The notes under the pieces: generated by a model
The model's input: the letters and a program-made list of their open reading frames with translations, nothing else
What the model was told of the DNA's origin: nothing
The model's database searches: none
Program-made: the position numbers and the translations under genes
Shown: in pieces, positions 2,832 to 63,278 of the stretch
Layout of the letters: the number at the start of each line of letters is the position of its first letter
Numbering within the stretch: position 1 is the first letter of the stretch
IMG/VR virus record: IMGVR_UViG_2791355125_000001
Span: 3,333-67,332 of that record
Length of the DNA stretch: 64,000 bases
From: a virus
Lineage: Duplodnaviria > Caudoviricetes
Direction: 5' to 3' (one strand)

Positions 2832-4306
2832 TAGGTAACGCTCCTTATGATCTCGACATAGGTCTGGGTCTTGCGAACAACGCCCGGATATTTCGCCACG
2901 ACTTCCGCATAGGTCTGGGTGTTGCGGAGCCTGCCGGGCTGCTTGGCGATGATTTCGGCATAGCTTTGAGTGTTGCGAACTCGGCCCGGCTGCTTGGCGA
3001 TGATTTCGGCATAGGTCTGGGTGTTCACTGCGGCATTCGCCGAGACCGGGAAGCCCAGATCCTCGAACCGGTTGATGGTGATCGCGAAGACGCCCTTGTC
3101 CGAATTGGTGAAATAGCCGCCGGGGCCGAACTGCAGAGCCGACACGGGATCGGCGAGCGGGACCGGCACGGCGGCGGTGTATTCCACGCCCCATGTCACC
3201 CCATCCGCCGAAGATGACAGCGCGTAGGTCTTGCCGTTGGAGGAAATCGCCAGCTTCAACCAGTTCGGCCCGTCCTTGGCGCCGTGAGCGGCTAGGCCGT
3301 CATTGGTGGCGGTGAACTGGTTTGCCTTGCGGAAATCGCCGTAGATCTTCGACCGCAGCATCTTGGCCGGATTGGCACCGTCGCCGCGCAAGCCCACCAT
3401 GTGGAAGTTGTTGCCGGACTTGAAGGCGAAGCCGATCGCCGCCTCTCGGCCCTGCTTGTTCATGCCAGACCAGTCGGCCTGGTACTTCATGATGTAGACA
3501 GAGCCTGGCTTGGGAATGTCCCAATCGCGCAGGAAGGTGGCCGAGCCGCCGTTCTTGCCGGTGATCTTCAGGCCGTCTTGCGTGACCTGCTGGACCGGGG
3601 GGCTTTCATAACCACCGCTGTCGGTCTCCGGGTCCGTTGGGTTTGGCACGATGATCTCGCCACCGTCGCCGCCGATTCCGGGGTCTACTGGTGGTGGTGT
3701 ATCGACCGCCTGAATGGTCAGCGCGAAATCCTGCTGACAGGACGTGCCCCAGGCATCTGTCACCTTGAGCCGGAAAGGATAGCTACCACTAGCCGAGAAA
3801 GCCAAGGCAAGGTGCAACTCCTTGCCGTTCTTGATGGTCAACTTTCCGCCGGGATCAGAGACAATGGCAAAGCTCGCCGCCGGGTCCTTGCCGCCGATCA
3901 TGAACATGGTGGCGATCAGGCCGAGCGCCGCATCCTGTCGCGCTGTGTCAGTGGAGAGCGCGATTCCCGAGAGCGCTGGAACAACGGCATCCGTCGGCTC
4001 TGATATCGCCGTGGCCTGCCCGCCTGCCGAGATGGCAGTGACGGCCACGCGCATCCCGAAGCCTTGTTCGGCCTCTGTCGGCTGATAGGTCGCGGCATTC
4101 GCGCCATCGATCTCGACGCCATCGCGGCGCCACTGAAAGGCAAAGCTGTCGATGCTGGAGCCCTTGCCGTCCCATTGGCCTGTATTGGCCGCCAGCTTCT
4201 TGCCAACGTAAGGCGTGCCTGCGATCTGCGGCGAAGCCAGGTTTTCGGGCGGATTCTTTCGACCTCCGCCGCGAGCGCAGCCGAGCCCTAATGTCAGACC
4301 GAGCAT
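2831..4306 (-). CDS. Probable head fibre/scaffold: GLGL anchor, Ig-like, cadherin-like and lectin-like domains, 4 C-terminal repeats
   Basis: N-term MLGLTLGLG; FQWRRDG..I.GA.AATY Ig motif; Y.FRLKVTDA.G....FALTI cadherin-like motif; TQ.YAE repeats. Confidence 0.75.
   Translation of the reverse strand: MLGLTLGLGCARGGGRKNPPENLASPQIAGTPYVGKKLAANTGQWDGKGSSIDSFAFQWRRDGVEIDGANAATYQPTEAEQGFGMRVAVTAISAGGQATAISEPTDAVVPALSGIALSTDTARQDAALGLIATMFMIGGKDPAASFAIVSDPGGKLTIKNGKELHLALAFSASGSYPFRLKVTDAWGTSCQQDFALTIQAVDTPPPVDPGIGGDGGEIIVPNPTDPETDSGGYESPPVQQVTQDGLKITGKNGGSATFLRDWDIPKPGSVYIMKYQADWSGMNKQGREAAIGFAFKSGNNFHMVGLRGDGANPAKMLRSKIYGDFRKANQFTATNDGLAAHGAKDGPNWLKLAISSNGKTYALSSSADGVTWGVEYTAAVPVPLADPVSALQFGPGGYFTNSDKGVFAITINRFEDLGFPVSANAAVNTQTYAEIIAKQPGRVRNTQSYAEIIAKQPGRLRNTQTYAEVVAKYPGVVRKTQTYVEIIRSVT
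2834..3028 (-). repeat. Four tandem ~51-bp (17-aa) repeats NTQTYAEIIAKQPGRV
   Basis: VNTQTYAEIIAKQPGRV / RNTQSYAEIIAKQPGRL / RNTQTYAEVVAKYPGVV / RKTQTYVEIIRSVT. Confidence 0.95.
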
Positions 4307-4322
4307 GATTATCCTACAGCGT

Positions 4323-4403
4323 TCAGGAGGATGGATTGGGCGGAGTGCCGGCGGCCGGCGGCCTTGTCAGGCCGAGACCGAGGCCGAGGGAGAGCCCGCG
4401 CAT
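4323..4403 (-). CDS. 26-aa anchor-only peptide MRGLSLGLGLGLTRPPAAGTPPNPSS
   Basis: ATG overlaps upstream stop (TGATG); same GLxLGLG motif as the next gene's N-terminus. Confidence 0.6.
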   Translation of the reverse strand: MRGLSLGLGLGLTRPPAAGTPPNPSS

Positions 4404-51015: not shown

Positions 51016-54000
51016 GTGGTTCAACAGATTTCAGCGCTGATCGTCCAGCCGGCTCTCGATGCGTCGAAATATACCCCCGGCGCGAATGCGAAGGTTGCCG
51101 CCGACCGGGCAATGGCCGAGTCCGCCAAGGAGGCTGGTGCCGCACAGCGCGGTGTGTCTGTCGTTCTGACGGACACCTCGGCCAAGCTGACGGTGACAGG
51201 GGACGTCCTGGCTCGCCTGTCGCGTACCTATGTGGAAGGCGCGCGGCAGACACAGGCTTTCGGGCGCGACCTCAATGCACTGAACCGTGCTTTGGAAACC
51301 GGAAAGGCCGAAGTCGCCGACGTGGCCAATGTGCTTGTCGGCATGCAGCAGAAGCTTGGTCTGGTGGCCGATTCGTCTACGCTTGTCGCTTCGGGGCAGA
51401 CGAAACTGGCGGCGGCCGTCGATCTCGCTAACAGCAACATCCGCCAGCAAACCACGCTACTCAATGAGGTCGCAATTGCGGAGGCCAAGGCCGCCCAACA
51501 GGCTGAGAACCATCGTCAGATCGCGGCGGCCAATCAGAACAAGTTCAATACGGTCCTGGGCGTCAGCTCGGGCTCATCCAGCGCGGCTGCGTCCGCTGGT
51601 GTGTTCACGGCTGAGTTTGATCGTTTGGACCAGATCGCGCGCCAAAAGGCGACCCAGATCGGCCAGAACTTCGTCGGTGATCTCAACGCATCGCTGATTG
51701 CCGGAGCGCCGAAATCCGCTTCGGTTTCCGCTAGCGCCTTTCAGGCCGAGTTCGATCGGCTCGATCAGATCGCCACGATGAAGGCGCAGCACGTCGGTGC
51801 ACTGTTCCAGCAGCAGTTGAACGAATCCTTTGGCATCGGTGTCTCACCCTTGTCCGCAAGATCGTCTGCGGCGGTCTTCGAGGAGGCGGGGCGAGAAGCG
51901 GACCAGATGGCTGCGAAGGTTGCCGCACTGCGCGCCGAGTTGAACCCGCTGGCAGCGGTTCAGGATCGCGTCAATGCGGAGATCGCCGAATATTCGGTTC
52001 TCGCGCAGCGCGGCATGATCAGCGCCGAGGAATTTGCGAAAGCGCAAGCGATGGCGCGCGCACGCGGCGGCCAGAGCAGCGGGGCGGCGCGCGCTGCTGG
52101 ATTTAATGCCGGCCAGCAGATCCAGGACATCGCCATGATGTCCCTTATCGGCCAGAACCCGATGACGCTTGCGCTGCAGCAGGGCCCGCAGTTGGCAACT
52201 GCAATTCAGCAGGGCGGTGGTCTGGCCGCCTTGGGCACCGGTCTCGCATCAGTGTTCAGCACCACGACTCTGCTGACCGTTGGCATCACCGCCGCTACTG
52301 CCGCCACCATCCAGTGGTTCATGAAAGGCAAGGATGGCGCGAACGGCATGGCCGACGCGATCGCCAAGAACGACAAGGCAGTTCGCGATCTCGCCGCCGC
52401 TTACAAATTGGCCGACTTCAACGCTGACGAACTCGGCAAGAAGACGGTGATTGCCGCCGAAGCGTCAGAGCGGATTTCTCGCCGCGAACTGGAGCGACAG
52501 ATCAGGCAGGCCGGCAAGGAAATCCAGGGCGCCACTTCGCCTTCCGATTACATGACTTTCGGATTGCTGGGCGGCGGACAGGAGCACACGGTTGATCCCC
52601 GCTTTGCGGCGTTTACCGGGCCGATCCGTGAGGTGCGCAAGCTGCTGTCCGAGGGGAAGGCGGATTTCGCGACGCTGGAGAAAATCCAGAATGAGATCGA
52701 GGCTATTGCTGACCAAGGGTACGGCTCATTCCGCACGTTTGTCGACGACATGGCGCGCATGGTCGGCCTTAAACCGGAGGGAATCCGCGACACGGCCGAC
52801 GACCTCCAAGACATCATCACGAAGGCGGCCGAGGCGGCGCGGCGTCTGGAACAACTCGATAACCTCAATCGGAATGGCCGCCGCGACCGCGTCGTCGGCC
52901 CAAACAGGATGGAGGACACGCAAGAGGCCGCGCGTCGCGTTCTGGAAGAGCAGCGCCGTGAGCGCGAGATCAAGTTTTCGGCCGACGAAGAACGGCTTCA
53001 GGCGCAACTGCAGCAGCAGCGGGCCCGCACCAATGCGGAACGTCTCGCAGCAGCGGAGCGTGTTGCACGCGCCGAAGGCGGCGACGTCAATGCCGAGGTG
53101 CGTATTCGCCGTGCGCTTGCCGAAGAACGCACCCGTCAGGAAGTTGAAGCCCGTGACGCCGCTATCCAGCGCAGCCAGGCGATCGAACGCTCGCTCCAGC
53201 AGCAGCGGCTCGAGCTTGACCTGATCGGCAAGACGACTGGAGAGCAAGCCAAGCTGCGTTTCGAGTTCGAGCGCATGCAGGAGTTGCGCGAACAGGCAGC
53301 GCGCACTGATGAGCCGATTAACGATAAAGAGGTCGCCAAGGTCAAGGCCGCAGCCGAGGCGATGAAGCAATATGCCGATGCGGCGGCACGCACGCGGCTC
53401 CAGCAGGACCTTCTGTTTGACCTTCGCCAGATGGGCCGCTCGCAGGCAGATCAATCCGTAGCGTCTCAACTGCGTTCCGCCGGCCTCCCTGAAGACCTCG
53501 ATTCCGAGATCGCCAAGGTCATCCGGATGCGGGACGAGATCGCCCGGATGAAAGGAACTTGGGAGGATGTTTTCCAGTCCGCTCGCGATGGCATCGATGG
53601 CGTCGTCGACGCGCTCTTCGGTGACGGCTCCATCGAGGACGCGTTGCGCAAGGCGGGCCAGCAGTTCGCCCGCATGATGTTCGACATGGCCGCAACTAAT
53701 CCGGCCAAGAACTGGCTGACCGGCTCCAATCTTAACTCCATCGCCGATCTGGGCATTTTCGGCAGCGGCGCAACCAGCGGTCAAGGTGGCGGCTTCGGTG
53801 GCGTCCTCGGCAATCTCCTGGGCGCGCAGAAAGCCGTCGGCGCCATGCAGGTGCAGGCCGCCACCGTCGTCATCAATGGCTCGGTCTTGGGTGGGGCTGG
53901 CGGCATTGGGACCGGCCTCCCGAATATCCTCGGCGGCACGGCCGCCAACGACAATTTCGCGCCCCCGAAGTTCCTGTCCGGTATCGGTTCGCCTACGCAG

Positions 54001-55149
54001 GCATCACTCGGAGATCCTGTCAGCCTCGCTTCTGGACTGCTCGGGTTCAGCGAGAGCCGTGATGCGGGGGCCATCAACAGCTATCTCCGCGCTGGTGGCG
54101 TCAATCTCGATGCCGCAAGCCAGGCTTGGTGCGCCGCATTCGTCAACTCGTCTCTGAAGCAGATCGGGGTCAATGGCTCCGGCTCGAATGTCGCCACGTC
54201 CTTCCTGAATTGGGGGAAGTCGGTGAACCCGGCCGATGTGCTGCGCGGCGACGTTCTCGTCCAGTCGCGTGGCCTGTCTGCGGGGCAACTTGGCGGCCAT
54301 GTCGGGTTCGCTACCGGTCTCACCCGCATGGACGACAAGCAACTGCAACTGCAGATGCTGTCGGGAAACACGTCCAATAAGGTCGGCCTTGACTGGTACA
54401 ATGCCAGCGACCTCAGCGTGCGGAGAGCAACGGCTGGCACCGGCAACATGAGTGGCCTGCTGGGCTCCTCGAACAAGGCTTCGGAAGCACTCGACAAGCT
54501 GGCGACCAGTTCAATCGGCTCGGCTGGCAGTCTTGCCAGCGGGCTCGGCAGCCTGACCGGCGTGACCCAATCGACCATGCAGGCGCTGGAACAGTTCGGT
54601 ATCGGCGCCAACAATCTCGGTTCGATGCTGCAGAACCTGATGACGACCGGTGGCGGCTTTGGCGGCAACTGGTTCGCCAATCTCGCCGGCATGTTCGGCG
54701 GAGCGGGTGGTGCCGTCAATTACATGAACAGCATATCGCCGGCAGCGACCGCGAGCATCCTGAAGGGTGGTGTCGGCCTGTTTGCCACCGGTGCGGCGTT
54801 CTGGGGTGGCAATGTTGTTCCGTTCGCCAATGGCGATGTGTTCCACTCTCCGGCTTACTTCCCAATGTCGGGCGGCAAGACCGGGATGCTCGGTGAAGCC
54901 GGCCCAGAGGCGATTATGCCGCTGCGACGCGGCAGCGACGGCAGGCTGGGTGTAGCGGCACAGATGGGCTTCAGGGGCCCGTCTGGCTTCGGCGCCGGAC
55001 AGATCGAGAGCCTCTTCAACTCGCTCGCCAAGAAGATGCAGTTCAACAGCAAGATCGTGAACGTGTTCGATCCGTCCGTGGTCGGGGATTACCTCAGGAC
55101 CGACGAGGGCGAGCAACTGGTCATGAACATTCAGCGCAGGAACAGCTAA
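51016..55149 (+). CDS. Tail tape measure protein with CHAP-like domain
   Basis: QIQD..LQQGPQ lambda TMP motif; WCAAFVN..GHVGF; GEAGPEAIMPL. Confidence 0.92.
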   Translation: MVQQISALIVQPALDASKYTPGANAKVAADRAMAESAKEAGAAQRGVSVVLTDTSAKLTVTGDVLARLSRTYVEGARQTQAFGRDLNALNRALETGKAEVADVANVLVGMQQKLGLVADSSTLVASGQTKLAAAVDLANSNIRQQTTLLNEVAIAEAKAAQQAENHRQIAAANQNKFNTVLGVSSGSSSAAASAGVFTAEFDRLDQIARQKATQIGQNFVGDLNASLIAGAPKSASVSASAFQAEFDRLDQIATMKAQHVGALFQQQLNESFGIGVSPLSARSSAAVFEEAGREADQMAAKVAALRAELNPLAAVQDRVNAEIAEYSVLAQRGMISAEEFAKAQAMARARGGQSSGAARAAGFNAGQQIQDIAMMSLIGQNPMTLALQQGPQLATAIQQGGGLAALGTGLASVFSTTTLLTVGITAATAATIQWFMKGKDGANGMADAIAKNDKAVRDLAAAYKLADFNADELGKKTVIAAEASERISRRELERQIRQAGKEIQGATSPSDYMTFGLLGGGQEHTVDPRFAAFTGPIREVRKLLSEGKADFATLEKIQNEIEAIADQGYGSFRTFVDDMARMVGLKPEGIRDTADDLQDIITKAAEAARRLEQLDNLNRNGRRDRVVGPNRMEDTQEAARRVLEEQRREREIKFSADEERLQAQLQQQRARTNAERLAAAERVARAEGGDVNAEVRIRRALAEERTRQEVEARDAAIQRSQAIERSLQQQRLELDLIGKTTGEQAKLRFEFERMQELREQAARTDEPINDKEVAKVKAAAEAMKQYADAAARTRLQQDLLFDLRQMGRSQADQSVASQLRSAGLPEDLDSEIAKVIRMRDEIARMKGTWEDVFQSARDGIDGVVDALFGDGSIEDALRKAGQQFARMMFDMAATNPAKNWLTGSNLNSIADLGIFGSGATSGQGGGFGGVLGNLLGAQKAVGAMQVQAATVVINGSVLGGAGGIGTGLPNILGGTAANDNFAPPKFLSGIGSPTQASLGDPVSLASGLLGFSESRDAGAINSYLRAGGVNLDAASQAWCAAFVNSSLKQIGVNGSGSNVATSFLNWGKSVNPADVLRGDVLVQSRGLSAGQLGGHVGFATGLTRMDDKQLQLQMLSGNTSNKVGLDWYNASDLSVRRATAGTGNMSGLLGSSNKASEALDKLATSSIGSAGSLASGLGSLTGVTQSTMQALEQFGIGANNLGSMLQNLMTTGGGFGGNWFANLAGMFGGAGGAVNYMNSISPAATASILKGGVGLFATGAAFWGGNVVPFANGDVFHSPAYFPMSGGKTGMLGEAGPEAIMPLRRGSDGRLGVAAQMGFRGPSGFGAGQIESLFNSLAKKMQFNSKIVNVFDPSVVGDYLRTDEGEQLVMNIQRRNS

Positions 55150-55151
55150 CC

Positions 55152-55526
55152 ATGGCCTACCTCAATCCGCGCGTGCTCGACCTTGGCTTGAACGTCCTGG
55201 TGACCGAAACCACTCGGCTCCACTACTGCTCGGACGAACCCACGACCTACGCCCAGGCCGTGTCTCTCTCGCTGGGGAGCAAGGCCAGTCCGACCATTGG
55301 CGCACCAGTAGATCGGACGCCGTCGGGCAGAAAGGTGACCGTTGCGGCGGTTGCGAACGGGGCGGCTACAGGGGCGGGATCGATCACCCATTACGCCCTC
55401 GTCGATGCTACCAATTCGCGCCTGCTTGCGACGCGGGAGACGGCGGCGGCAAAGGCCGTTGCTACCGGCGACACGATCACGTCGGCAGCGTTTGACGTCG
55501 GCATTCCGGGTGCTGGTGGGGCCTGA
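55152..55526 (+). CDS. Virion structural protein
   Basis: Beta-rich, 124 aa, follows TMP. Confidence 0.65.
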   Translation: MAYLNPRVLDLGLNVLVTETTRLHYCSDEPTTYAQAVSLSLGSKASPTIGAPVDRTPSGRKVTVAAVANGAATGAGSITHYALVDATNSRLLATRETAAAKAVATGDTITSAAFDVGIPGAGGA

Positions 55527-56818
55527 TGGCGACTGTCAGCGTCGATCCCGTCGGGATCACAACAGGGGCGCCAGTCCTTGGGTCACCGGCTGTTGCCCTG
55601 AGCATTGCAGTCGTCCCGCAGTCGATCGCGACAGGGGCTCCAGTGCTCGACCGCGCCGATGTTGTCGTGCTGCCGGAGACTTGGCCGTTCAGAGCCAGGT
55701 TCCCCCTTGCCGAAACGCTGGAATGGATGACCGAAGTACTCGGCAGCCGAACCGGCGAACAGCGCTTGGCGTTGCGTAGCGCACCGCGGCAGTCGTTTTC
55801 GTACAGCGTCCGCCTGTCGATCGCCGATTACGCCAGAGGTGCTGCCTTCGCGCGGCGCCGCGTCGGAACTGTCATTGGCGTTCCTGTCTGGGCGGAAGGG
55901 ATCGACCTTGCGGTCGACATAGCGGCCACGGCGAGCATTCTTCCCGTCGACACCACGGCTGGAGACTGGCGCGTCAACGGCGGCGTCATGATCTGGGAGC
56001 GCTCGGATAAATTCGTCGTCGCGCGGATCACGTCGGTTTCGCCTGACTCTCTGGAATTGCTGGCGCCGATAGGGCTGGATTTCCAGAAGCCGGCGATAAT
56101 TCCGCTCCGCTTCGCGCTGGTGCCCGAAGGGTTCTCCGTCGACAGGAACACGACATACAGCGACGTCGGGACGAAGTTCCTGGTCACCGATAACATCGAC
56201 CTAGCGGCTGCTTACGTCTCCACTTACCCGAAGTATCAGGGGCTCGACGTGGTGACTGAGGCGCCTCTTCTCGTCGCCAACGTCTCCGACAGCATTGTCA
56301 GATCAATGGAGCTGAACGACAACGGTTTCGGGCCGATCGTGGTCGAGACGCTGCGCAGCTATGTCGACTTCGGCCAGACCGTGTCGTTCATGGAAAGCCG
56401 CCCGTCTGGCGTCTGGAAGCGCCGCAAGTGGCTGCATTCGCTCCGGGGCAAGCAGAAGCCGTTCTGGCTGCCAACGTTCAATCAGGACATTTTGCTGCAG
56501 GCAAATATCGGCGCCGCGGCGACAACGGCCCTAGTGCGCAGCATCGGGCATCCGAGTTCGTATATCGGCCGTCACGTCATGATCCTGCTGAAGGACGGCA
56601 CCCGCTTGCAGCGACAGATCACGAATGCTGGCGCCTCCGATGGTGGAAACGACACCATCGTCATTTCCTCGAGCCTCGGGAAGTCGGCCGCGCCGGCTGA
56701 CGTGGCCCTCTTCTGCTTCATCTCCAGGGTTCGCCTGAACTCCGATTCCGTGTCGATCGACCACAAGTATATCGACGCCTCGGTGGTCAACATTCCAGTT
56801 ATCGAGGTCCCGGCATGA
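55526..56818 (+). CDS. Distal tail protein
   Basis: ETLEW.T.V....EQR.ALR..PR; GKQ.PFWLPT. Confidence 0.75.
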   Translation: MATVSVDPVGITTGAPVLGSPAVALSIAVVPQSIATGAPVLDRADVVVLPETWPFRARFPLAETLEWMTEVLGSRTGEQRLALRSAPRQSFSYSVRLSIADYARGAAFARRRVGTVIGVPVWAEGIDLAVDIAATASILPVDTTAGDWRVNGGVMIWERSDKFVVARITSVSPDSLELLAPIGLDFQKPAIIPLRFALVPEGFSVDRNTTYSDVGTKFLVTDNIDLAAAYVSTYPKYQGLDVVTEAPLLVANVSDSIVRSMELNDNGFGPIVVETLRSYVDFGQTVSFMESRPSGVWKRRKWLHSLRGKQKPFWLPTFNQDILLQANIGAAATTALVRSIGHPSSYIGRHVMILLKDGTRLQRQITNAGASDGGNDTIVISSSLGKSAAPADVALFCFISRVRLNSDSVSIDHKYIDASVVNIPVIEVPA

Positions 56819-57648
56819 GCTACGACACGCCCGAGACGTCGGTTGACCAGGGCCAGCCGTATTTCCTCTATCTGTTCGACAATGGCGTGTCGCAGGTCAG
56901 GCTGGCGTCCGATGCGACCGATCTGAGGAAAGATCCAGAACTCTCCGGCGAGGCAAAGACCTGGACGGGATCGCCGATCAAGCATGAAAATATCAAGCAG
57001 ACCGGCAACATCGAGAAGAACTACGTCGATCTGATCTTTCCTTTATCGGACCCCTACGGCCGCACGCTGCTCTCGCCCGCGCCTCAGATCACCACCGTCA
57101 CGATCTGGCGCGGCCATCACACGGACCTGTCGGAGCAACACCGCGTCATCTGGAAAGGCCGAATTGTCGGCACCAAGGAAGTCGGGCAGACGATCAGGGT
57201 GACGGTCGAAAGCATCTTCACCTCGATGCGTCGACCGGGCTGCCGGGCTCGCTATCAGCGGACCTGCCGACATGCGCTTTACCTTCCCGGCTGCAATCTG
57301 AATGTGAGCGATTTCAAGGTGCCCGCGACGGTAACTGCCGTGAACACCCTTGCCCTGACCGTGGCCGCCGCAGCCTCAAAAGAGGACGGTTACTACAAGG
57401 CCGGCGTGGTCATCTTCAACGGCCTCTACGGCTGGGTTGAAAAGCATGTCGGCAACCAGCTGACGCTCATCACTCAGATCAACGGACTGGCCGAGGCGGT
57501 CGCCAAATCCGGATCGGCGGCGGTCGAAATCGCGCCGGGCTGTGATCTCTCGGTCAAGACCTGCAACGCCAAATTTAACAACCGGCTGAACTTCGGCGGC
57601 TTCCCCTTCATGACCGACGAAAACCCGTTCTCGATCAGCATCGTCTGA
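56815..57648 (+). CDS. BR0599/DUF2163 tail hub protein (Fe-S cysteines)
   Basis: CRHALY..GC; PGCD....C..KF.N..NFGGFP. Confidence 0.9.
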   Translation: MSYDTPETSVDQGQPYFLYLFDNGVSQVRLASDATDLRKDPELSGEAKTWTGSPIKHENIKQTGNIEKNYVDLIFPLSDPYGRTLLSPAPQITTVTIWRGHHTDLSEQHRVIWKGRIVGTKEVGQTIRVTVESIFTSMRRPGCRARYQRTCRHALYLPGCNLNVSDFKVPATVTAVNTLALTVAAAASKEDGYYKAGVVIFNGLYGWVEKHVGNQLTLITQINGLAEAVAKSGSAAVEIAPGCDLSVKTCNAKFNNRLNFGGFPFMTDENPFSISIV

Positions 57649-57660
57649 GGCTAACCCGAC

Positions 57661-60600
57661 ATGTTCTGGAACTTTGTCATCGGGCTGGCGTCCTTTGCGC
57701 TCAACCTGATCCTGACGCCTAAGCCGCAGGATGCGAAGCCGGCATCCCTTTCGGACTTCAAAGCACCGACGGCGGATGAAGGCCGTGAAATCCCGGTTGC
57801 CTTTGGCACCAATGATTTCGCCGATCCGAACGTGGTTTGGTACGGGTCGCTTGGCACGGATGCCATCAAGGGACCGCGCCGCTATGGCTTTTTCGGGCCG
57901 CGTCAGACCCTTGGCTACAAGTATTACCTCGGCATGCACATGGGCCTCTGCCATGGTCCGGCAGACGAGATCCAGGAGATCCGCGTCGGCGATAAGGTCG
58001 CCTGGAAGGGTGCGTTCCGCGGCGGGCGGATGGGGATCAACAAGGAAAACCTGTTCGGCGGACAGGACCGCGAAGGCGGCATATCCGGCAAGCTCGACGT
58101 TGAGATGGGTGCCCAGGATCAGGGCCGGAACGACTATCTCGTTGCCAAGCAGGGACCGGATACACCGGCCTATCGCGGCATCGTCGGCATCGTACTGCGC
58201 GGCGTGTATCTCGGCACCAGCCCTTACATCAAGCCGTGGGCGTTCAGGATCAAGCGCATCTTCAAGCGTTCCGATGGCTCCGCGCAGTGGTATCCGCAGA
58301 CGGCAGAGGTTGCTGCGCCGATCGACACGACGAAAGGCAATCCGGGCATTGATCTCGGGGTCCACCTCAACAACGGAATCAATTGGGACACGTATGGCGA
58401 CTATATCCTGTGGCAGCACCACACGGGCGATCCGATCGTCTGGTCGATCCCTACAGGCAAGCACATCACCATAGCGCGGGAGGGGACCTGGGAGTTTGGC
58501 CCTCGCGGCCATATCACTGGCGACAATGAGATTGTCGTCAGGCAAGGTAGCGGTGGTACCGGAACGTCTTTGAAGTTCTACAAGCCGGATACCGGCGCGC
58601 TTCTTCAAAGCGTCGACATCCCAGGAACCGCGACCAACCATGGCTTCCTGATGGATGACATCGAGGTGGATGGCACCCGATGGGGAGTGGCCAGGTCTGT
58701 TGGCCCCAGCGCTGCGGCCAGCCGATGGAACCTCTTGAAAAAAGAGCCTGGGGGGCCTTGGTCGCTGCAATGGTCAGAGGCCGACACTGGAGAAAGCGTC
58801 GCAGCCATCTCCATGGGGCGAAAATACGTCTACGGCGTCACAGCCACTAGCTCGATGAATATCGTCAGGGTTGCTTGGCCATCCCTTGCATTAACTATCG
58901 TCGCTCCAACCGGCCTGACCGCGAACGTCCTGAACTGTCATTATTTCGACGACACGGACGAGGTCATCGTAGTCTGCGCAAATGGCGATATCCGTGTCTA
59001 TTCGGCCGATCTTTCGACGCTCAAGCGGTCGGCAATCGGGATAGCAAACGGCAGTGCCTGGGGGATGGCATCCAAGCGGATGAAAAGCGGGCCGGGAACC
59101 ATCGGTCTGCTCACCAACGTCTCGGGCGCGGTGAAGATCCGTCAGGTCGGCGTTTCGACGCTTGAGATCGTTCATACGATCAATGTCGCAGACACTAATT
59201 TTGTCGGGAAGGACGTTCCGCAACTCGGCCATGAAGCAGGTTTCAATGAAGAACACGGCAGCGTTCTGCTCGCGAACGGCCTGTTCCGGTCACTCTTCTG
59301 GTTCGTCACCGGGGCATCTTCCGGCGACATGAACCCAGCCCACATCATCCGCGAGTGCCTGACCGACAAGACGTGGGGGATGGGCTACAACGACGCCGAT
59401 ATCGACGATGCGAGCTTTCGCACGGCGGCGGATATCTTCTACGCCGAGGGCTTCGGCCTGTCGCTCAAATGGTATCGCGAAGAGGAGATCCGGGAGTTCG
59501 TTTCCCGCATTCTGGCGCATGTCGACGCCTATCTCTTTGTCGATCGCTCGACCGGCAAGTTCAGGCTGAAGCCGATCCGCAAGGACTACGACATCAACAC
59601 CATTCCGGTGATCAATGAAGATGTCGTGACCGACTGGACCGAGATCGAGCGGCGCCAGACAGCAGAGGCCGTCAATCAGGTCATCGTCAACTACTACAAC
59701 CGGGAAAAGCGCAAGACCGGCTCCCATGCCGTGACGAATATCGCCCAGGCTATGCAGTCGACCAGCGGCATCGTTTCCACAAGCCGCGGCTATCCCGGCA
59801 TCAACCATCGTGACCTCGCAATACGAGTGGCGACGCGCGATGTTCTCTCGCTGGGGGCGGGGATCATCTCAGGTCGCATTTCGTGCAAACGCACCGTCGA
59901 GAAGCTGAACCCCGGTGATCCGTTCCGGCTCGTATCTGACCGGCACAAGCTGTCGGGTGAAGTGATGCGCGTTGTTGATCAGGACTTCGGCGATGGGCGA
60001 TCAAACAAGATCGTCATGAAGTTCGTGCAGGACGTGTTCAATCTCGGCGCTGCGGTTCTGGTGGATAGTTCTGCCGAGGATGTTCCGGACACCCCCACGG
60101 CACCGGTATCGCCGCGGCTGATCTGGGAGATGCCATATCGGGAACTCCGGCAGATGATCGGCGATACCGATCTGGCCGCCATGCTTTCCGCTGATCCGAA
60201 AGCCGGCTTGCTCCAGATCGCCGGCGGGCGCCCGTCTGACAACGCACTCAACGCCATAGTCCAGGTAGGCGGCGGCAGTGTCTACAGTGACGCGGGCTCG
60301 CTCGACTTTGCGCCGAGCGCGGCACTGGATGCGGCAATCTCCGCTGACGCAACCGACGTTGCCGTGTCCGGTGAAATAGGGCTCGGTAACGTCTCCATCG
60401 GCTCGCTGGCGGTGATATTCGGCGAGGCCAGGACAGAGGTCGTACGCATCGATGCAATAGGTAGCGGCACGCTCACCATTGCGCGCGGCTGCCTTGACAC
60501 GGTTCCGCGTAGCCACACGAAGGGCACCGCAATCCTGTTCTTTGACGACTTCTCAGAATCGGATTTTGAGAAGCGGACGAACGGCGACAGCGTGTCGGTG

Positions 60601-61164
60601 CGGCTTCTCACGGTAACAAGTCGAGACGTGTTGGACACGGTCGATGCACCAGTCGACACGGTAACATTCGCCAGCCGCGCCATTCGCCCGTACAGACCCG
60701 CCAATGTGAAGGTGAACGGCAGCTCATCGGGTCCGGTTGATGCTATCTCACTCGATCCGATCCCGGTCACGTGGGCTCGGCGTAACCGGCTGACGGAATC
60801 GGCGCCGCTTGACTGGACCGCCGCTGATCAGGCGCCAGAGACTGGACAGACGACAACCGTCACGCTGACCGATCTGAGCGGCACGGTGGTGCGCACCTAC
60901 TCCGGGATTACGGGGACGTCGCAGGCAGTCGCCAAGGCCGATTTCGGTGGCGTCGAGCAGGGTTACATCGTCGTCTCGGCCGAGCGCGACGGTTACTCTT
61001 CGCTGCGGTCATACCGTATCCCGGTCATTCTCGCGACGCCAAGCCCATCGGACATTCTGATCGACAACAGCACGGTTGCGGTCACGACACCGATCGGGAC
61101 GCTGGTGGGCAAGCTTTCGGTAGTCGGCGGAACCGCGCCGTTCACCTTCGAGATCATTGGTTAA
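57661..61164 (+). CDS. Central tail tip/host-specificity protein
   Basis: GYKYYLGMH.GLCHGP, PAYRG, MNPAHIIRECLT, RGCLDT.P; ends in a half cadherin-like domain. Confidence 0.88.
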   Translation: MFWNFVIGLASFALNLILTPKPQDAKPASLSDFKAPTADEGREIPVAFGTNDFADPNVVWYGSLGTDAIKGPRRYGFFGPRQTLGYKYYLGMHMGLCHGPADEIQEIRVGDKVAWKGAFRGGRMGINKENLFGGQDREGGISGKLDVEMGAQDQGRNDYLVAKQGPDTPAYRGIVGIVLRGVYLGTSPYIKPWAFRIKRIFKRSDGSAQWYPQTAEVAAPIDTTKGNPGIDLGVHLNNGINWDTYGDYILWQHHTGDPIVWSIPTGKHITIAREGTWEFGPRGHITGDNEIVVRQGSGGTGTSLKFYKPDTGALLQSVDIPGTATNHGFLMDDIEVDGTRWGVARSVGPSAAASRWNLLKKEPGGPWSLQWSEADTGESVAAISMGRKYVYGVTATSSMNIVRVAWPSLALTIVAPTGLTANVLNCHYFDDTDEVIVVCANGDIRVYSADLSTLKRSAIGIANGSAWGMASKRMKSGPGTIGLLTNVSGAVKIRQVGVSTLEIVHTINVADTNFVGKDVPQLGHEAGFNEEHGSVLLANGLFRSLFWFVTGASSGDMNPAHIIRECLTDKTWGMGYNDADIDDASFRTAADIFYAEGFGLSLKWYREEEIREFVSRILAHVDAYLFVDRSTGKFRLKPIRKDYDINTIPVINEDVVTDWTEIERRQTAEAVNQVIVNYYNREKRKTGSHAVTNIAQAMQSTSGIVSTSRGYPGINHRDLAIRVATRDVLSLGAGIISGRISCKRTVEKLNPGDPFRLVSDRHKLSGEVMRVVDQDFGDGRSNKIVMKFVQDVFNLGAAVLVDSSAEDVPDTPTAPVSPRLIWEMPYRELRQMIGDTDLAAMLSADPKAGLLQIAGGRPSDNALNAIVQVGGGSVYSDAGSLDFAPSAALDAAISADATDVAVSGEIGLGNVSIGSLAVIFGEARTEVVRIDAIGSGTLTIARGCLDTVPRSHTKGTAILFFDDFSESDFEKRTNGDSVSVRLLTVTSRDVLDTVDAPVDTVTFASRAIRPYRPANVKVNGSSSGPVDAISLDPIPVTWARRNRLTESAPLDWTAADQAPETGQTTTVTLTDLSGTVVRTYSGITGTSQAVAKADFGGVEQGYIVVSAERDGYSSLRSYRIPVILATPSPSDILIDNSTVAVTTPIGTLVGKLSVVGGTAPFTFEIIG

Positions 61165-61176
61165 AGGATAGACGAG

Positions 61177-62196
61177 ATGACGGTCTTTTTTCAGGGCGCG
61201 GAAATGCAGGATTTCCCGACGGTCGTTGGAACGGTCACGCACCAGACGACTGCGGGAACTTTCACTTCCGCCAATGCAAGATGCTCCAACAGAACGGATA
61301 CGTCTGGGTCGGAGTACAGCCATTATCTTGAATCATCTGCTTTTTCATCGCCTGAATTCTGGACCCATTGCAAGTTCAGCGTAGGGTTCATGGGCAATAC
61401 GCCGTTCAATTTTCTGACGTGGTTTGCTGGTGGGACACAGCGGCTGGCCTTGCGCCAAAGTGCTGCTTCGTCCGGGCTGATGCAATTGCGCCGATGGGAT
61501 GGAGCGTCCTGGACCGTGCTCGCAACATCTGGGGCGACTTACGCGATCAACACTCTCTACGTTTTGGACATCTACGTAAAATTGGGTAATCCGGGTTCGG
61601 TGCGCGTCTATCTTGGCATTGCGGGGACGCCCGGCAGTAGTGTCCCTATAATCGCGGAAGACTCGCTTGATCTATCGTTTGGCGGAGCGGTCACGGCGTT
61701 GGACAAGGTGCGCTGGTCAGGCCAGAACGCCGGTGGCGGCGCATATACTTATTTCTCCGAATGCATTGTTGCCGACTGGAACACCATCGGCTCGAAGCTG
61801 GTCGCGCGAGCGCCGACCGCCAACGGCGCCTACTCGGAATGGTCAGGTGCGGGCTATTCCGCACTCAACGAACTGACGCCGGCCGCCACCTACATGACCA
61901 GCGGCGCGGCGGATCAGCGTATCTCCACCGTGATGGCTACTTTCCCGGCGCTCGGAACCGGAGAGCGGATCGAACGGGTGAAGGTGGCCGCTAACGCTTT
62001 ACGTGATGCTTCCGGCCCGCAAAAAATGAACATTTTCTACAGGGTGGCTGGCGCAGACGATCATAAGAGCGATCGAGCGCTAACCGTTTCCGCGGCGAAC
62101 TATACCGAGGCATGGGACATGTCCCCGGCCACTGGAACCTATTGGACACCGACGGAACTGAATGCGTCTGAACCAGGCGCGCGGTCGAGGGCGTAA
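61177..62196 (+). CDS. Virion adhesin subunit, distant homolog of 1800-2831
   Basis: LamG-like N-part; P.A.G...W..Y.AL.E; ends SPATGTYWTPTELNASEPGARSRA. Confidence 0.75.
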   Translation: MTVFFQGAEMQDFPTVVGTVTHQTTAGTFTSANARCSNRTDTSGSEYSHYLESSAFSSPEFWTHCKFSVGFMGNTPFNFLTWFAGGTQRLALRQSAASSGLMQLRRWDGASWTVLATSGATYAINTLYVLDIYVKLGNPGSVRVYLGIAGTPGSSVPIIAEDSLDLSFGGAVTALDKVRWSGQNAGGGAYTYFSECIVADWNTIGSKLVARAPTANGAYSEWSGAGYSALNELTPAATYMTSGAADQRISTVMATFPALGTGERIERVKVAANALRDASGPQKMNIFYRVAGADDHKSDRALTVSAANYTEAWDMSPATGTYWTPTELNASEPGARSRA

Positions 62197-62199
62197 GAC

Positions 62200-62526
62200 A
62201 TGGGTGTCAGCCTCGACAAGCTCCACGGCACAGCGGCCTACCGAGATCAGAACGCTGGCGACAACGTCGACAAGCAGTGGCTCGAGAAGCTGCATGTCAC
62301 GGCGATCTACCGCGACACCAAGGCTGGCTACACTGACCAGATCCTGTTCGACAAGATCCACGTCACCGCCGTCTACCGCTTTCAGGGGGCGGCATTCTCG
62401 ATCGTTGGAGATGAACTTCGAGTTGCTGGCGGGCTTACGGTCGGCACGCACAACGTCACCGTCAAAGCGACGGACGCCAACGGCAAGAGCTTCACAAAGG
62501 TAATCCCGATCACCGTGACGCCGTAG
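62200..62526 (+). CDS. Small scaffold: three KLHVTAxYR repeats plus C-half of a cadherin-like domain
   Basis: LDKLHGTAAYR / LEKLHVTAIYR / FDKIHVTAVYR, then FSIVGDELRV...VTVKATDANG.SF.K...ITVT. Confidence 0.75.
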   Translation: MGVSLDKLHGTAAYRDQNAGDNVDKQWLEKLHVTAIYRDTKAGYTDQILFDKIHVTAVYRFQGAAFSIVGDELRVAGGLTVGTHNVTVKATDANGKSFTKVIPITVTP

Positions 62527-62856: not shown

Positions 62857-63075
62857 TTAGCCGCCGCCGGCGCCGCCGCCAAGAGTGCACGTGCCGCCGT
62901 TGCCATTAAGATTGGTACACAGACCTTCAAATGCGGTCTTGACGTAACCGCCGATAGCCAGGACGGCAATGATGGCGGCGGCGGAGATGATGCCGACCAG
63001 GATTGAATATTCAACCATAGCGGCGCCGTCTTCTTCTTCACGGAATCGCCGAGCGACGTTCAAAATCTTTTCCAT
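62857..63075 (-). CDS. flp: Flp/Fap (Tad) pilin
   Basis: RRF.EEEDG/AAMVEY prepilin motif followed by a hydrophobic helix. Confidence 0.92.
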   Translation of the reverse strand: MEKILNVARRFREEEDGAAMVEYSILVGIISAAAIIAVLAIGGYVKTAFEGLCTNLNGNGGTCTLGGGAGGG

Positions 63076-63142
63076 TACGAGATACCCCTGATTAGACCCA
63101 ACGCAATACGAGTGAGGGTGTCCCCCGCTTCTCGTGATTTTG

Positions 63143-63278
63143 ATCATATGACTGCGATTATTTTGCCGTCAACTACATCTTAAGAGTTCGTTAACCGACA
63201 GGTACTTGGCACGAAAACATGCGTTGTCTCCAGCGCTATGAAATTGCTCACGAATTTGGCGCATTAACTGTTTCTTAA
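63143..63278 (-). promoter_or_regulatory. Pilin promoter with two CtrA boxes
   Basis: Minus strand TTGACG-N18-TATGAT; TTAA-N7-TTAAC 63180-63195; TTAA-N7-TTAA 63264-63278. Confidence 0.8.

What the first reader, a model, noticed from the sequence alone, without database searches (positions are those of the whole stretch)
61039..62526. Cadherin-like domain split across two non-adjacent genes
Seen: the tail-tip protein ends PSDILIDNSTVAVTTPIGTLVGKLSVVGGTAPFTFEIIG*. The 108-aa scaffold about 1.2 kb downstream ends GAAFSIVGDELRVAGGLTVGTHNVTVKATDANGKSFTKVIPITVTP. Joined, they match the bacterial cadherin-like repeat pattern (P.DI.L....V.....GT.VG.LS....F.F.....F.I.G.EL......Y.V.V.ATD..G.SF.K...ITV). 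An intact version occurs in the prophage L fibre. Inference: the halves reassemble to clip the scaffold onto the tail tip, or the adhesin cassette was inserted into an ancestral domain. Both halves remain open frames.
Basis: partly seen in the sequence, partly recalled or inferred. Interest (0 to 1): 0.8.

Follow-up and report, generated by a model that had tools for sequence, protein, structure and literature searches.

The report
Ig-like domain split across tail genes
A prophage tail-tip protein ends in the first half of an Ig-like (cadherin-type) domain and a small protein two genes downstream carries the second half, a conserved arrangement that probably snaps a receptor-binding module onto the tail tip.

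Summary
The tail-tip protein J (57661-61164) ends in about 40 residues that match the N-terminal part of a cadherin-repeat profile (positions 4-43 of 100; 0 of 2000 shuffles reach the score). The 108-aa protein B (62200-62526) ends in 46 residues that match positions 47-96. The two matches tile the domain, with the break in a loop.

The same split, with a stop at the same point, occurs in a second prophage of this genome (contig C5) and in a MAG contig (L034). Both halves are under purifying selection: dN/dS is 0.17-0.28 for the J half and 0.03-0.10 for the B half, at dS 0.4-1.1.

A related J protein (L042/L046) has an intact Ig-like domain at exactly this position, followed by a LamG lectin domain. 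The intervening gene A (phrog_6368, lectin-like N-domain) and B's N-terminal three-repeat module also occur elsewhere as a gene pair without either half domain (L037).

The best reading is that a recombination inside an ancestral Ig domain produced a split domain that is now kept as a non-covalent joint J–B(–A).

The parts
57661..61164 (+). Gene J: tail-tip / host-specificity ('megatron'-type) protein, 1167 aa
   Evidence: Pfam Phage-tail_3 PF13550 at E 9.5e-9. phrog_1101 tail protein at E 2e-262. 777 phage records hold homologs of its C-terminal 607 aa.
60718..61038 (+). Conserved domain of J just before the tail (about residues 1020-1126), shared with J relatives
   Evidence: P0006-P0010 match only through this part. 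Invariant columns W1038...D1110 in alignment A4. dN/dS 0.14-0.28.
61039..61161 (+). N-terminal half of an Ig-like (cadherin-type) domain, residues 1127-1167 of J, followed by the TAA stop at 61162-61164
   Evidence: hhalign to cadherin repeats, columns 11-50, probability 89%. 19.3 bits at profile positions 4-43, with 0 of 2000 shuffles reaching it. dN/dS 0.17-0.28. Colinear with the N-half of an intact Ig domain in L042.
61177..62196 (+). Gene A: 339-aa tail-module protein with a variable lectin-like N-domain (1-195) and a conserved C-domain (196-339)
   Evidence: phrog_6368 matched full length at E 1.4e-34. 48 phage records hold homologs. Atlas nearest Pfam cluster is Laminin_G_3, score 0.94. 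Foldseek hits to ConA-like lectins, PL7 lyases and CBM66, from a model with mean pLDDT 48.6 and N-domain block means about 52-88. dN/dS 0.18-0.22 for the N part and 0.04-0.11 for the C part.
62200..62385 (+). B, residues 1-62: three tandem repeats (LDKLHGTAAYRD / LEKLHVTAIYRD / FDKIHVTAVYRF)
   Evidence: Read directly from the sequence. The same module occurs alone in the 76-77-aa proteins P0041 and P0045. dN/dS 0.07-0.13.
62386..62526 (+). B, residues 63-108 plus stop: C-terminal half of the Ig-like (cadherin-type) domain
   Evidence: hhalign columns 55-104, probability 98%, E 1.4e-14. 41.1 bits at profile positions 47-96. Pfam He_PIG 69-96/96 at E 0.017, below the cut-off. dN/dS 0.03-0.10. 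26 of 46 residues identical to the distant B relative P0062, against 17 of 62 in the repeats.

Best explanation
The last three genes of this prophage's tail module form one attachment device.

- **J.** The trimeric tail-tip protein ends in the first strands of an Ig-like β-sandwich (about strands A-C; strand naming is recalled).
- **B.** It carries the remaining strands (about D-G) at its C-terminus.
- **A.** It is a lectin-like protein that travels with B's N-terminal three-repeat module as a gene pair.

I propose that the two half domains fold together into one Ig-like domain. This fold complementation ties B non-covalently to the tip of J. I further propose that B's repeats hold A, the probable receptor-binding part.

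The arrangement most likely arose when recombination placed the A + small-protein cassette inside an Ig domain that once linked J to a fused lectin domain. The product was then kept by selection.

**Shown:** the two halves, their tiling of the domain, recurrence of the split, purifying selection, the intact comparator, and the independent A+b pair.

**Inferred:** physical reassembly, B-A binding, and A as the receptor binder.
For: 1. The J tail and the B tail match complementary, non-overlapping parts of the same domain profile: positions 4-43 and 47-96, or columns 11-50 and 55-104.
2. The same split occurs in 3 of 3 known instances (window, contig C5, L034). The J stop lies at the same codon position although the stop codons differ (TAA, TAA, TGA), and the J-A spacer and frame differ in L034.
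3. Both halves are under purifying selection at high synonymous divergence: J half dN/dS 0.17-0.28 at dS 0.70-1.06, and B half 0.03-0.10 at dS 0.37-1.02. In the J half the alternating hydrophobic positions are invariant.
4. In the distant B relative P0062 the half domain is the best conserved part, 26 of 46 residues against 17 of 62 in the repeats.
5. The J relative in L042/L046 has an intact Ig-like domain (He_PIG 18-95/96, E 4e-4) at exactly this position, followed by Laminin_G_3 (E 7e-25). In that phage the order tail tip, Ig, lectin is made covalently.
6. A plus the b module is a gene pair on its own in L037.
7. In the solved roseophage R4C baseplate, the C-terminal domain of the J homolog is the fibre-binding domain (PMC10276861; passages read).
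8. B alone does not give a confident fold: mean pLDDT 38 from a 3-sequence alignment, which is weak evidence.
Against: - No direct test of binding exists.
- Only three instances are known, all fairly close (B 86-94% identical), so recurrence is partly shared ancestry.
- The context of the one distant B relative (P0062) could not be fetched.
- The intact comparator's C-half is of the He_PIG type and is not detectably related to B's C-half. A single insertion into that very domain is therefore not shown.
- The profile alignment of P0062 runs back into its third repeat (profile positions 23-96). B's own repeats might therefore supply the missing strands.
- Pfam does not call either half at its own thresholds.
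- A-like genes follow J in 82 of 160 other J loci without any b module or split domain, so A-type proteins can be used without this device.
Confidence: 0.5

Rival explanations
1. Recombination scar with independent functions. The breakpoint of a module exchange happens to lie inside an Ig domain, and the halves do not pair. The J tail is kept as a short docking peptide or structural cap, like the other short variable tails of J relatives. B's C-half folds with B's own three repeats, which stand in for strands A-C, into a self-contained small β-domain that works with A, for example as an assembly chaperone or adaptor.
For: - J relatives end in many different short tails after the conserved domain, such as LTADTT...HTADE and LLLSGD... 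repeats. This site is a hot spot of module exchange.
- The b module exists without the C-half (P0041, P0045).
- B has three repeats, as many as the strands it lacks, and the P0062 profile alignment reaches into repeat 3.
- The comparator's C-half is unrelated to B's.
Against: - In all 3 instances the N-half and the C-half occur together. Among the six-frame ORFs of 160 further J loci plus four of my loci and part of the window (33,050 ORFs in all), no other locus has either half.
- The two matches tile one domain without gap or overlap.
- B alone gives no confident fold (pLDDT 38; weak).
- A useless or merely capping J tail would not need to keep the core pattern of strands A-C at dN/dS 0.17-0.28.
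Confidence: 0.3
2. Recoding. J, A and B are read as one polypeptide by stop-codon readthrough, so the domain is split only by an inserted domain and not between proteins.
For: In the window and in contig C5, J, A and B lie in the same frame. They are separated by single TAA stops with spacers of 12 and 3 bases.
Against: - In L034, J and A are in different frames (10-base spacer, TGA stop), yet the arrangement is kept.
- A has its own AGGA Shine-Dalgarno sequence and ATG.
- A and the b protein are separate genes in L037, and A is a stand-alone gene family.
- From general knowledge, TAA is the least leaky stop codon in bacteria.
Confidence: 0.03
3. Decaying remnants. An insertion broke a dispensable decoration domain, and both pieces are neutral leftovers.
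For: Ig-like domains on phage structural proteins are often accessory (recalled: Fraser et al. 2006; seen here only as a cited title in a search listing).
Against: dN/dS is well below 1 for both halves at dS 0.4-1.1. There are no frameshifts or early stops in 3 instances. The half domain is also conserved in P0062.
Confidence: 0.04

Closest known systems
Genes-in-pieces in phages (Aeh1 nrdA split by mobE; gene 43 of Aeromonas phage 25; T4 topoisomerase genes 39/60)
   Same: A coding region that is contiguous in relatives is interrupted by an inserted gene. The two polypeptides are both kept and must reassemble (PMC2988022; passages read).
   Different: In those cases the inserted gene is a homing endonuclease and the split protein is an enzyme. 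Here the inserted genes are tail-module proteins (A is phrog_6368). The split unit is one small β-sandwich domain, and the break may have been put to use as a docking joint. Reassembly is shown for those cases and not here.
Donor-strand complementation of incomplete Ig folds in chaperone-usher pili (recalled, not from a call)
   Same: An Ig-like fold that is incomplete in one polypeptide is completed by strands from another, which gives a very stable non-covalent link.
   Different: In pili one strand is donated. Here about half of the sandwich (roughly 3 + 4 strands) would come from each partner, and there is no chaperone or usher. No paper joining 'donor strand', 'tail fiber', 'Ig-like' and 'bacteriophage' was found (0 papers).
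Megatron / GTA ORFg15-type tail-tip proteins with a C-terminal fibre-binding domain (RcGTA, roseophage R4C)
   Same: J belongs to this broad family (PF13550, phrog_1101; the DSS3P8 homolog is annotated as GTA ORFg15). In R4C the C-terminal domain binds the fibres.
   Different: R4C has a fibre-binding domain of about 300 residues and a different fibre. An A-like query did not hit R4C. Here the C-terminus is only a half domain.
J homolog with fused Ig + LamG domains (L042 / L046, 1447 aa)
   Same: The J core and the pre-tail domain are the same (42% identity over the last 148 aa of this J). An Ig-like domain begins at the same residue, and a ConA-like lectin domain sits at the tip.
   Different: Everything is in one polypeptide. 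The Ig is of the He_PIG type. The LamG domain is not detectably homologous to A. There is no b module.
Bacterial cadherin-like repeats of large adhesins (Pfam Cadherin PF00028, Big_9, Cadherin_4)
   Same: They are the best sequence relatives of both halves.
   Different: Those are tandem, complete domains that carry the calcium-binding motifs. The phage halves lack those acidic motifs and are 5-7 residues shorter at two loops (alignments).

Membership tests
Cadherin domain (Pfam PF00028) / bacterial cadherin-like Ig repeat | Sequence match to the domain profile along its whole length | tested here: met
   Met only jointly by the two proteins. J tail matches positions 4-43 and B matches 47-96 of a 100-position profile. 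hhalign gives columns 11-50 and 55-104.
Cadherin domain (Pfam PF00028) / bacterial cadherin-like Ig repeat | Score above Pfam's curated threshold | tested here: not met
   There is no Cadherin hit. B gives He_PIG at 16 bits against a cut-off of 24. The J tail gives no hit at E up to 10.
Cadherin domain (Pfam PF00028) / bacterial cadherin-like Ig repeat | Calcium-binding acidic motifs (E in the ..sV.EN.. stretch, D.D loop, LD(F/R)E, final D.N(D/E); motif names recalled) | tested here: not met
   In the alignments, J has TVAVTT and VVGGTAP where the repeats have SV.EN. and D.D.GD. B has GGL--TVG where the repeats have LDFE, and it ends ITVTP instead of DVNE.
Cadherin domain (Pfam PF00028) / bacterial cadherin-like Ig repeat | Complete domain within one polypeptide | tested here: not met
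   A stop follows ...TFEIIG, and the C-half lies 1.2 kb downstream in another gene.
Genes-in-pieces (split gene whose products reassemble) | Relatives carry the unit unsplit at the same position | tested here: met
   The J of L042/L046 is colinear up to the break and then continues into a complete Ig-like domain. Its C-half is not closely related to B's.
Genes-in-pieces (split gene whose products reassemble) | Both pieces kept open and under selection | tested here: met
   Three instances, no frameshifts, dN/dS 0.03-0.28.
Genes-in-pieces (split gene whose products reassemble) | The interrupting gene is a mobile (homing endonuclease) gene | tested here: not met
   A has no Pfam hit and is phrog_6368, a tail-module or virion protein family. 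B's N-part is a repeat module.
Genes-in-pieces (split gene whose products reassemble) | The pieces physically reassemble | not testable with these tools
It needs co-purification or a structure.
Tail-tip host-specificity protein (Phage-tail_3 / GTA ORFg15 'megatron' type) for J | Phage-tail_3 domain and position after the tape measure and distal tail genes | tested here: met
   PF13550 at E 9.5e-9 and 35.8 bits against a cut-off of 23. phrog_1101 at E 2e-262, with upstream genes phrog_1082 and phrog_778. The tape measure ORF lies at 51016-55149.
phrog_6368 (function unknown) for A | Full-length match to the family profile | tested here: met
   E 1.4e-34, residues 1-339 against profile positions 1-328 of 328.

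The most novel reading that the evidence does not exclude
A naturally split Ig-like domain works as a snap fastener on a phage tail. Strands A-C at the end of the tail-tip protein and strands D-G at the end of a 108-aa adaptor fold into one β-sandwich. The adaptor's three tandem repeats each hold one protomer of a trimeric lectin-like receptor-binding protein (A), which would resolve the 1:3 mismatch between one J chain and one fibre trimer. This would be a new way of docking exchangeable host-range modules. It would also be a natural split-domain tag, born from a recombination inside a domain.
Probability: 0.3. Interest if true: 0.75.

Novelty: new variant of a known kind. Interest (0 to 1): 0.6.

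Why it matters
If the halves pair, this is a case of a protein-protein interface created in one step by gene fission inside a small β-sandwich. The break is then used to hang a receptor-binding module on a phage tail.

- It would add a docking principle, half-domain fold complementation, to the known ways in which siphophage tips recruit fibres.
- It would help to read the many short, variable C-terminal tails of J-type proteins.
- It would offer a small natural split-domain pair for engineering phage host range or protein ligation-free tagging.

If the halves do not pair, the locus still documents a recombination breakpoint inside a domain whose two pieces were both kept.

Tried and rejected
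- **Complex prediction.** I made no other attempt at a complex and folded no joined sequence.
- **B alone.** It folded with mean pLDDT 38, which is uninformative beyond 'no confident autonomous fold'.
- **A alone.** Mean pLDDT 48.6, with only the N-domain usable.
- **Search for an unsplit close relative of B's half.**
  - No phage record matched B.
  - The 'longer' search gave only two giant cadherin-repeat proteins.
  - Among the 150 listed hits of the 1.84-billion-protein search, all proteins over 200 aa match only the C-half as repeats.
- **Context of the distant B relative P0062.** Not found in genome, viral or metagenome contigs.
- **Family alignment of B as a locus query.** It failed or found nothing.
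- **L036.** A chance hit in an unrelated phage.
- **b module in the genus of G301.** Found in 1 of 202 genomes, the source genome itself.
- **Xanthomonas phage Elanor.** Its J ends at the same alignment point (...DFTFEVP*), but it has no cadherin-profile match and no A or B homolog, so it was rejected as an instance.
- **A as the R4C fibre.** Not supported: R4C is not among 22 records hit by an A-like query.
- **Readthrough fusion.** Rejected because of the frame change in L034.
- **A against the LamG of L042.** No detectable homology (hhalign E 0.54; the BLASTP E of 0.001 over 99 residues looks like a shifted, chance alignment).
Full report
**What is there**

The finding lies at the end of the tail module of the right-hand prophage of the window. 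The plus-strand genes are listed below.

| Gene | Coordinates | Evidence |
|---|---|---|
| Tape measure | 51016-55149 | ORF position and size |
| Small gene | 55152-55526 | no family hit |
| Distal-tail / hub-type genes | 55526-56818 and 56815-57648 | phrog_1082, phrog_778 |
| J, tail-tip protein, 1167 aa | 57661-61164 | Pfam Phage-tail_3 E 9.5e-9; phrog_1101 E 2e-262 |
| A, 339 aa | 61177-62196 | no Pfam hit; phrog_6368 full length, E 1.4e-34 |
| B, 108 aa | 62200-62526 | see below |

The J half begins at base 61039 and the B half at 62386.

**Is it a split domain?**

I collected complete repeats from large adhesin-like ORFs in genomes of the same family. These ORFs had been hit by B's C-terminal part: 17 of 301 genomes had a match, and all non-self matches cover only about residues 44-108 of B. 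I extended each repeat upstream without reference to J.

- Of 19 such repeats, 18 match Pfam Cadherin PF00028. Their profile finds cadherin and protocadherin structures in the PDB.
- Profile-profile comparison puts the three J tails on columns 11-50 (probability 89%, E 2e-6). It puts B residues 63-107 on columns 55-104 (98%, E 1.4e-14).
- A broader profile (262 repeats from 132 proteins) gives 19.3-20.3 bits for the J tails at positions 4/5-41/43. None of 2000 shuffles per tail reaches this (maxima 5.5-9.1). The three B proteins of the instances give 33.5-41.1 bits at positions 46/47-96.

The repeats were chosen through B, so the B match is partly circular. The J match is an independent test.

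The two matches tile one domain, with the break in the loop after the ...TF.I strand. Pfam alone is weak: He_PIG at E 0.017 for B and nothing for the J tail. The acidic calcium-binding motifs of true cadherin repeats are missing (alignments). 'Ig-like domain of the cadherin / He_PIG / Big_9 kind' is therefore the right name.

One caveat on sources. The first small profile included one repeat from genome G078, which is flagged unpublished.

**Recurrence and selection**

- The same three genes occur in a second prophage of this genome, on contig C5 (L005): J' is 1169 aa, A' 331 aa, and B' 108 aa at 94% identity.
- They occur again on a MAG contig (L034): J is 1008 aa with a vWA insert, A 334 aa, and B 86% identical.
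- A viral contig (L035/L124) is 4848 of 4848 bases identical to the C5 copy, so it is not counted.

All three J proteins stop right after ...TFEI plus two residues. The stop codons differ (TAA, TAA, TGA), and the J-A spacer and frame differ in L034.

Nei-Gojobori estimates are as follows.

| Region | dN/dS | dS |
|---|---|---|
| J half domain | 0.17-0.28 | 0.70-1.06 |
| B half domain | 0.03-0.10 | 0.37-1.02 |
| B repeats | 0.07-0.13 | |
| A, C-terminal domain | 0.04-0.11 | |
| A, N-terminal domain | 0.18-0.22 (dN about 0.55) | |

Neither half is decaying.

**What the pieces are**

*B's N-terminal part.* Its first 62 residues are three repeats with a period of about 22 residues. The search of 1.84 billion representatives (347 hits at E up to 0.001, 150 listed) found mostly giant cadherin-repeat proteins that match only B's C-half. 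It also found three informative small proteins.

- P0041 (77 aa) and P0045 (76 aa) have the three repeats and a short tail, but no half domain.
- P0062 (112 aa) has the repeats and the half domain at about 40% identity overall. The half domain is its best conserved part: 26 of 46 residues against 17 of 62 in the repeats.

*The A+b pair.* P0041 lies directly after an A homolog in a Mesorhizobium cantuariense record (L037), in a genome without a J homolog. A plus the repeat module is therefore a gene pair in its own right.

*A.* It is a stand-alone family in alphaproteobacterial phages.

- 48 phage records hold homologs, annotated 'hypothetical', 'virion protein' or 'N4 gp53-like'.
- An A-like gene lies near J in 47 of 80 genome loci and 35 of 80 viral loci.
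- Its N-domain looks like a ConA/LamG-type lectin. The nearest Atlas cluster with a Pfam family is Laminin_G_3 at 0.94. Foldseek hits go to L-type lectins, PL7 lyases, CBM66 and a phage Dit CBM. The model's mean pLDDT is only 48.6, with N-domain block means of about 52-88, so this is a lead.

**The comparator**

One J relative (L042 from the genome search; the same tail in L046) is colinear with this J through the conserved pre-tail domain and the N-half, up to exactly ...TFEIIG / ...TFSLVG (42% identity over 148 aa, E 2e-32). It then continues in the same ORF (1447 aa) with the rest of an Ig-like domain (He_PIG 18-95/96, E 4e-4) and a Laminin_G_3 domain (E 7e-25).

So at this very position a relative has tail tip, intact Ig and lectin in one chain.

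Other J relatives end here in many different short tails or large domains. The site is a hot spot of module exchange. Among the 33,050 six-frame ORFs scanned (160 further J loci, four of my own loci and part of the window), the cadherin profile hits only the B and J tails of the three instances.

**How it most likely works**

In the solved baseplate of roseophage R4C, three copies of the J homolog each bind a fibre trimer through their C-terminal 'fibre-binding' domain (PMC10276861; passages read; its supplements were not seen).

By analogy with R4C and with the comparator, I propose the following.

- The J half and the B half fold together into one β-sandwich.
- This ties B to the tail tip.
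- B's repeats hold A, the variable lectin-like binder.

The history would be a recombination that put the A+b cassette inside an ancestral Ig linker and fused b in frame to the C-half. This is a genes-in-pieces outcome, as known for phage enzymes split by homing endonuclease genes (PMC2988022; passages read). Here the break would be used as a joint.

The anatomy, recurrence, selection and comparators are shown. Binding is inferred.

**Rivals**

1. The halves do not pair. B's own three repeats complete its fold, and the J tail is one more docking peptide. This fits the free-standing b proteins and the P0062 alignment that reaches into repeat 3. It does not fit the strict co-occurrence and exact tiling of the halves.
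2. Readthrough fusion. This was suggested by the shared frame of J, A and B in the window and in C5, but it is contradicted by L034.
3. Neutral remnants. This is contradicted by dN/dS.

**Limits**

- There are only three instances, all fairly close.
- The context of P0062 could not be fetched.
- I found no paper that describes a split Ig domain as a phage tail joint. The searches were 'donor strand' + 'tail fiber' + 'Ig-like' + 'bacteriophage' (0 papers) and 'fold complementation' + 'bacteriophage' + 'tail' (7 papers, none on this by title and abstract). This covers only the held library.

Noticed in passing
window 2834-4366 (-), domain at about 3701-3970: The fibre-like ORF of the left prophage carries one complete cadherin-type Ig domain (residues 133-222 of the stop-to-stop ORF; my profile gives E 9.3e-8 at positions 11-105). 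Pfam does not call it. It is not closely related to the split halves.
   Followed up: partly
window 57661-62526; L005 3251-8098 (-): J, A and B share one reading frame and are separated only by single TAA stops (spacers of 12 and 3 bases), both in the window and in the C5 copy. In L034, J and A are in different frames.
   Followed up: yes
G000 contig C5 (L005), also L035/L124: The same genome holds a second, diverged copy of this prophage tail module (J 85% and B 94% identical). A's N-domain is strongly diverged (dN about 0.56), as expected for two phages with different receptors in one host.
   Followed up: partly
window 62857-63147 (-); L042 2976-3206 (-): An Flp-pilin-like small gene (…EDGAAMVEYSILVGII…) lies just downstream of the tail module, here and after the unsplit J of L042. 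It is either a shared moron or a shared boundary.
   Followed up: no
L044, L045, L047, L125, L128, L132; P0007-P0009: J relatives end, after the conserved pre-tail domain, in short repetitive peptides such as LTADTT..TADTT.HTADE, LLLSGD..G.D.L.LSGD and LLLETGDNLLLETGDILLLE. These may be docking peptides for downstream fibres.
   Followed up: no
L034 1953-4979 (P0005): In this J the central region is replaced by a von Willebrand factor A domain (PF00092, E 1.4e-9), while the N- and C-terminal parts stay colinear with the window's J.
   Followed up: no
L037 4481-5575: An ORF with the look of an IS630-type transposase (by eye, not tested) sits between the tape measure gene and a fibre gene, upstream of the A + b pair. 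No J homolog was found in that genome with this query.
   Followed up: partly
P0041, P0045 (C-termini): The short b proteins end in ...RRRRSINVFT and ...RPRRSMIVLV. In the alignment these fall on the last strand (…KVIPITVTP) of B's half domain. This may be a one-strand version of the same docking idea, or chance.
   Followed up: no
L132 9741-10955; L042 about 2200-2772: The LamG module that is fused to J in L042/L046 ends almost identically (…ARYASD.G…VP.AAFPRS*) to the C-terminus of a separate downstream ORF in L132. The same lectin module is thus found both fused and free.
   Followed up: no
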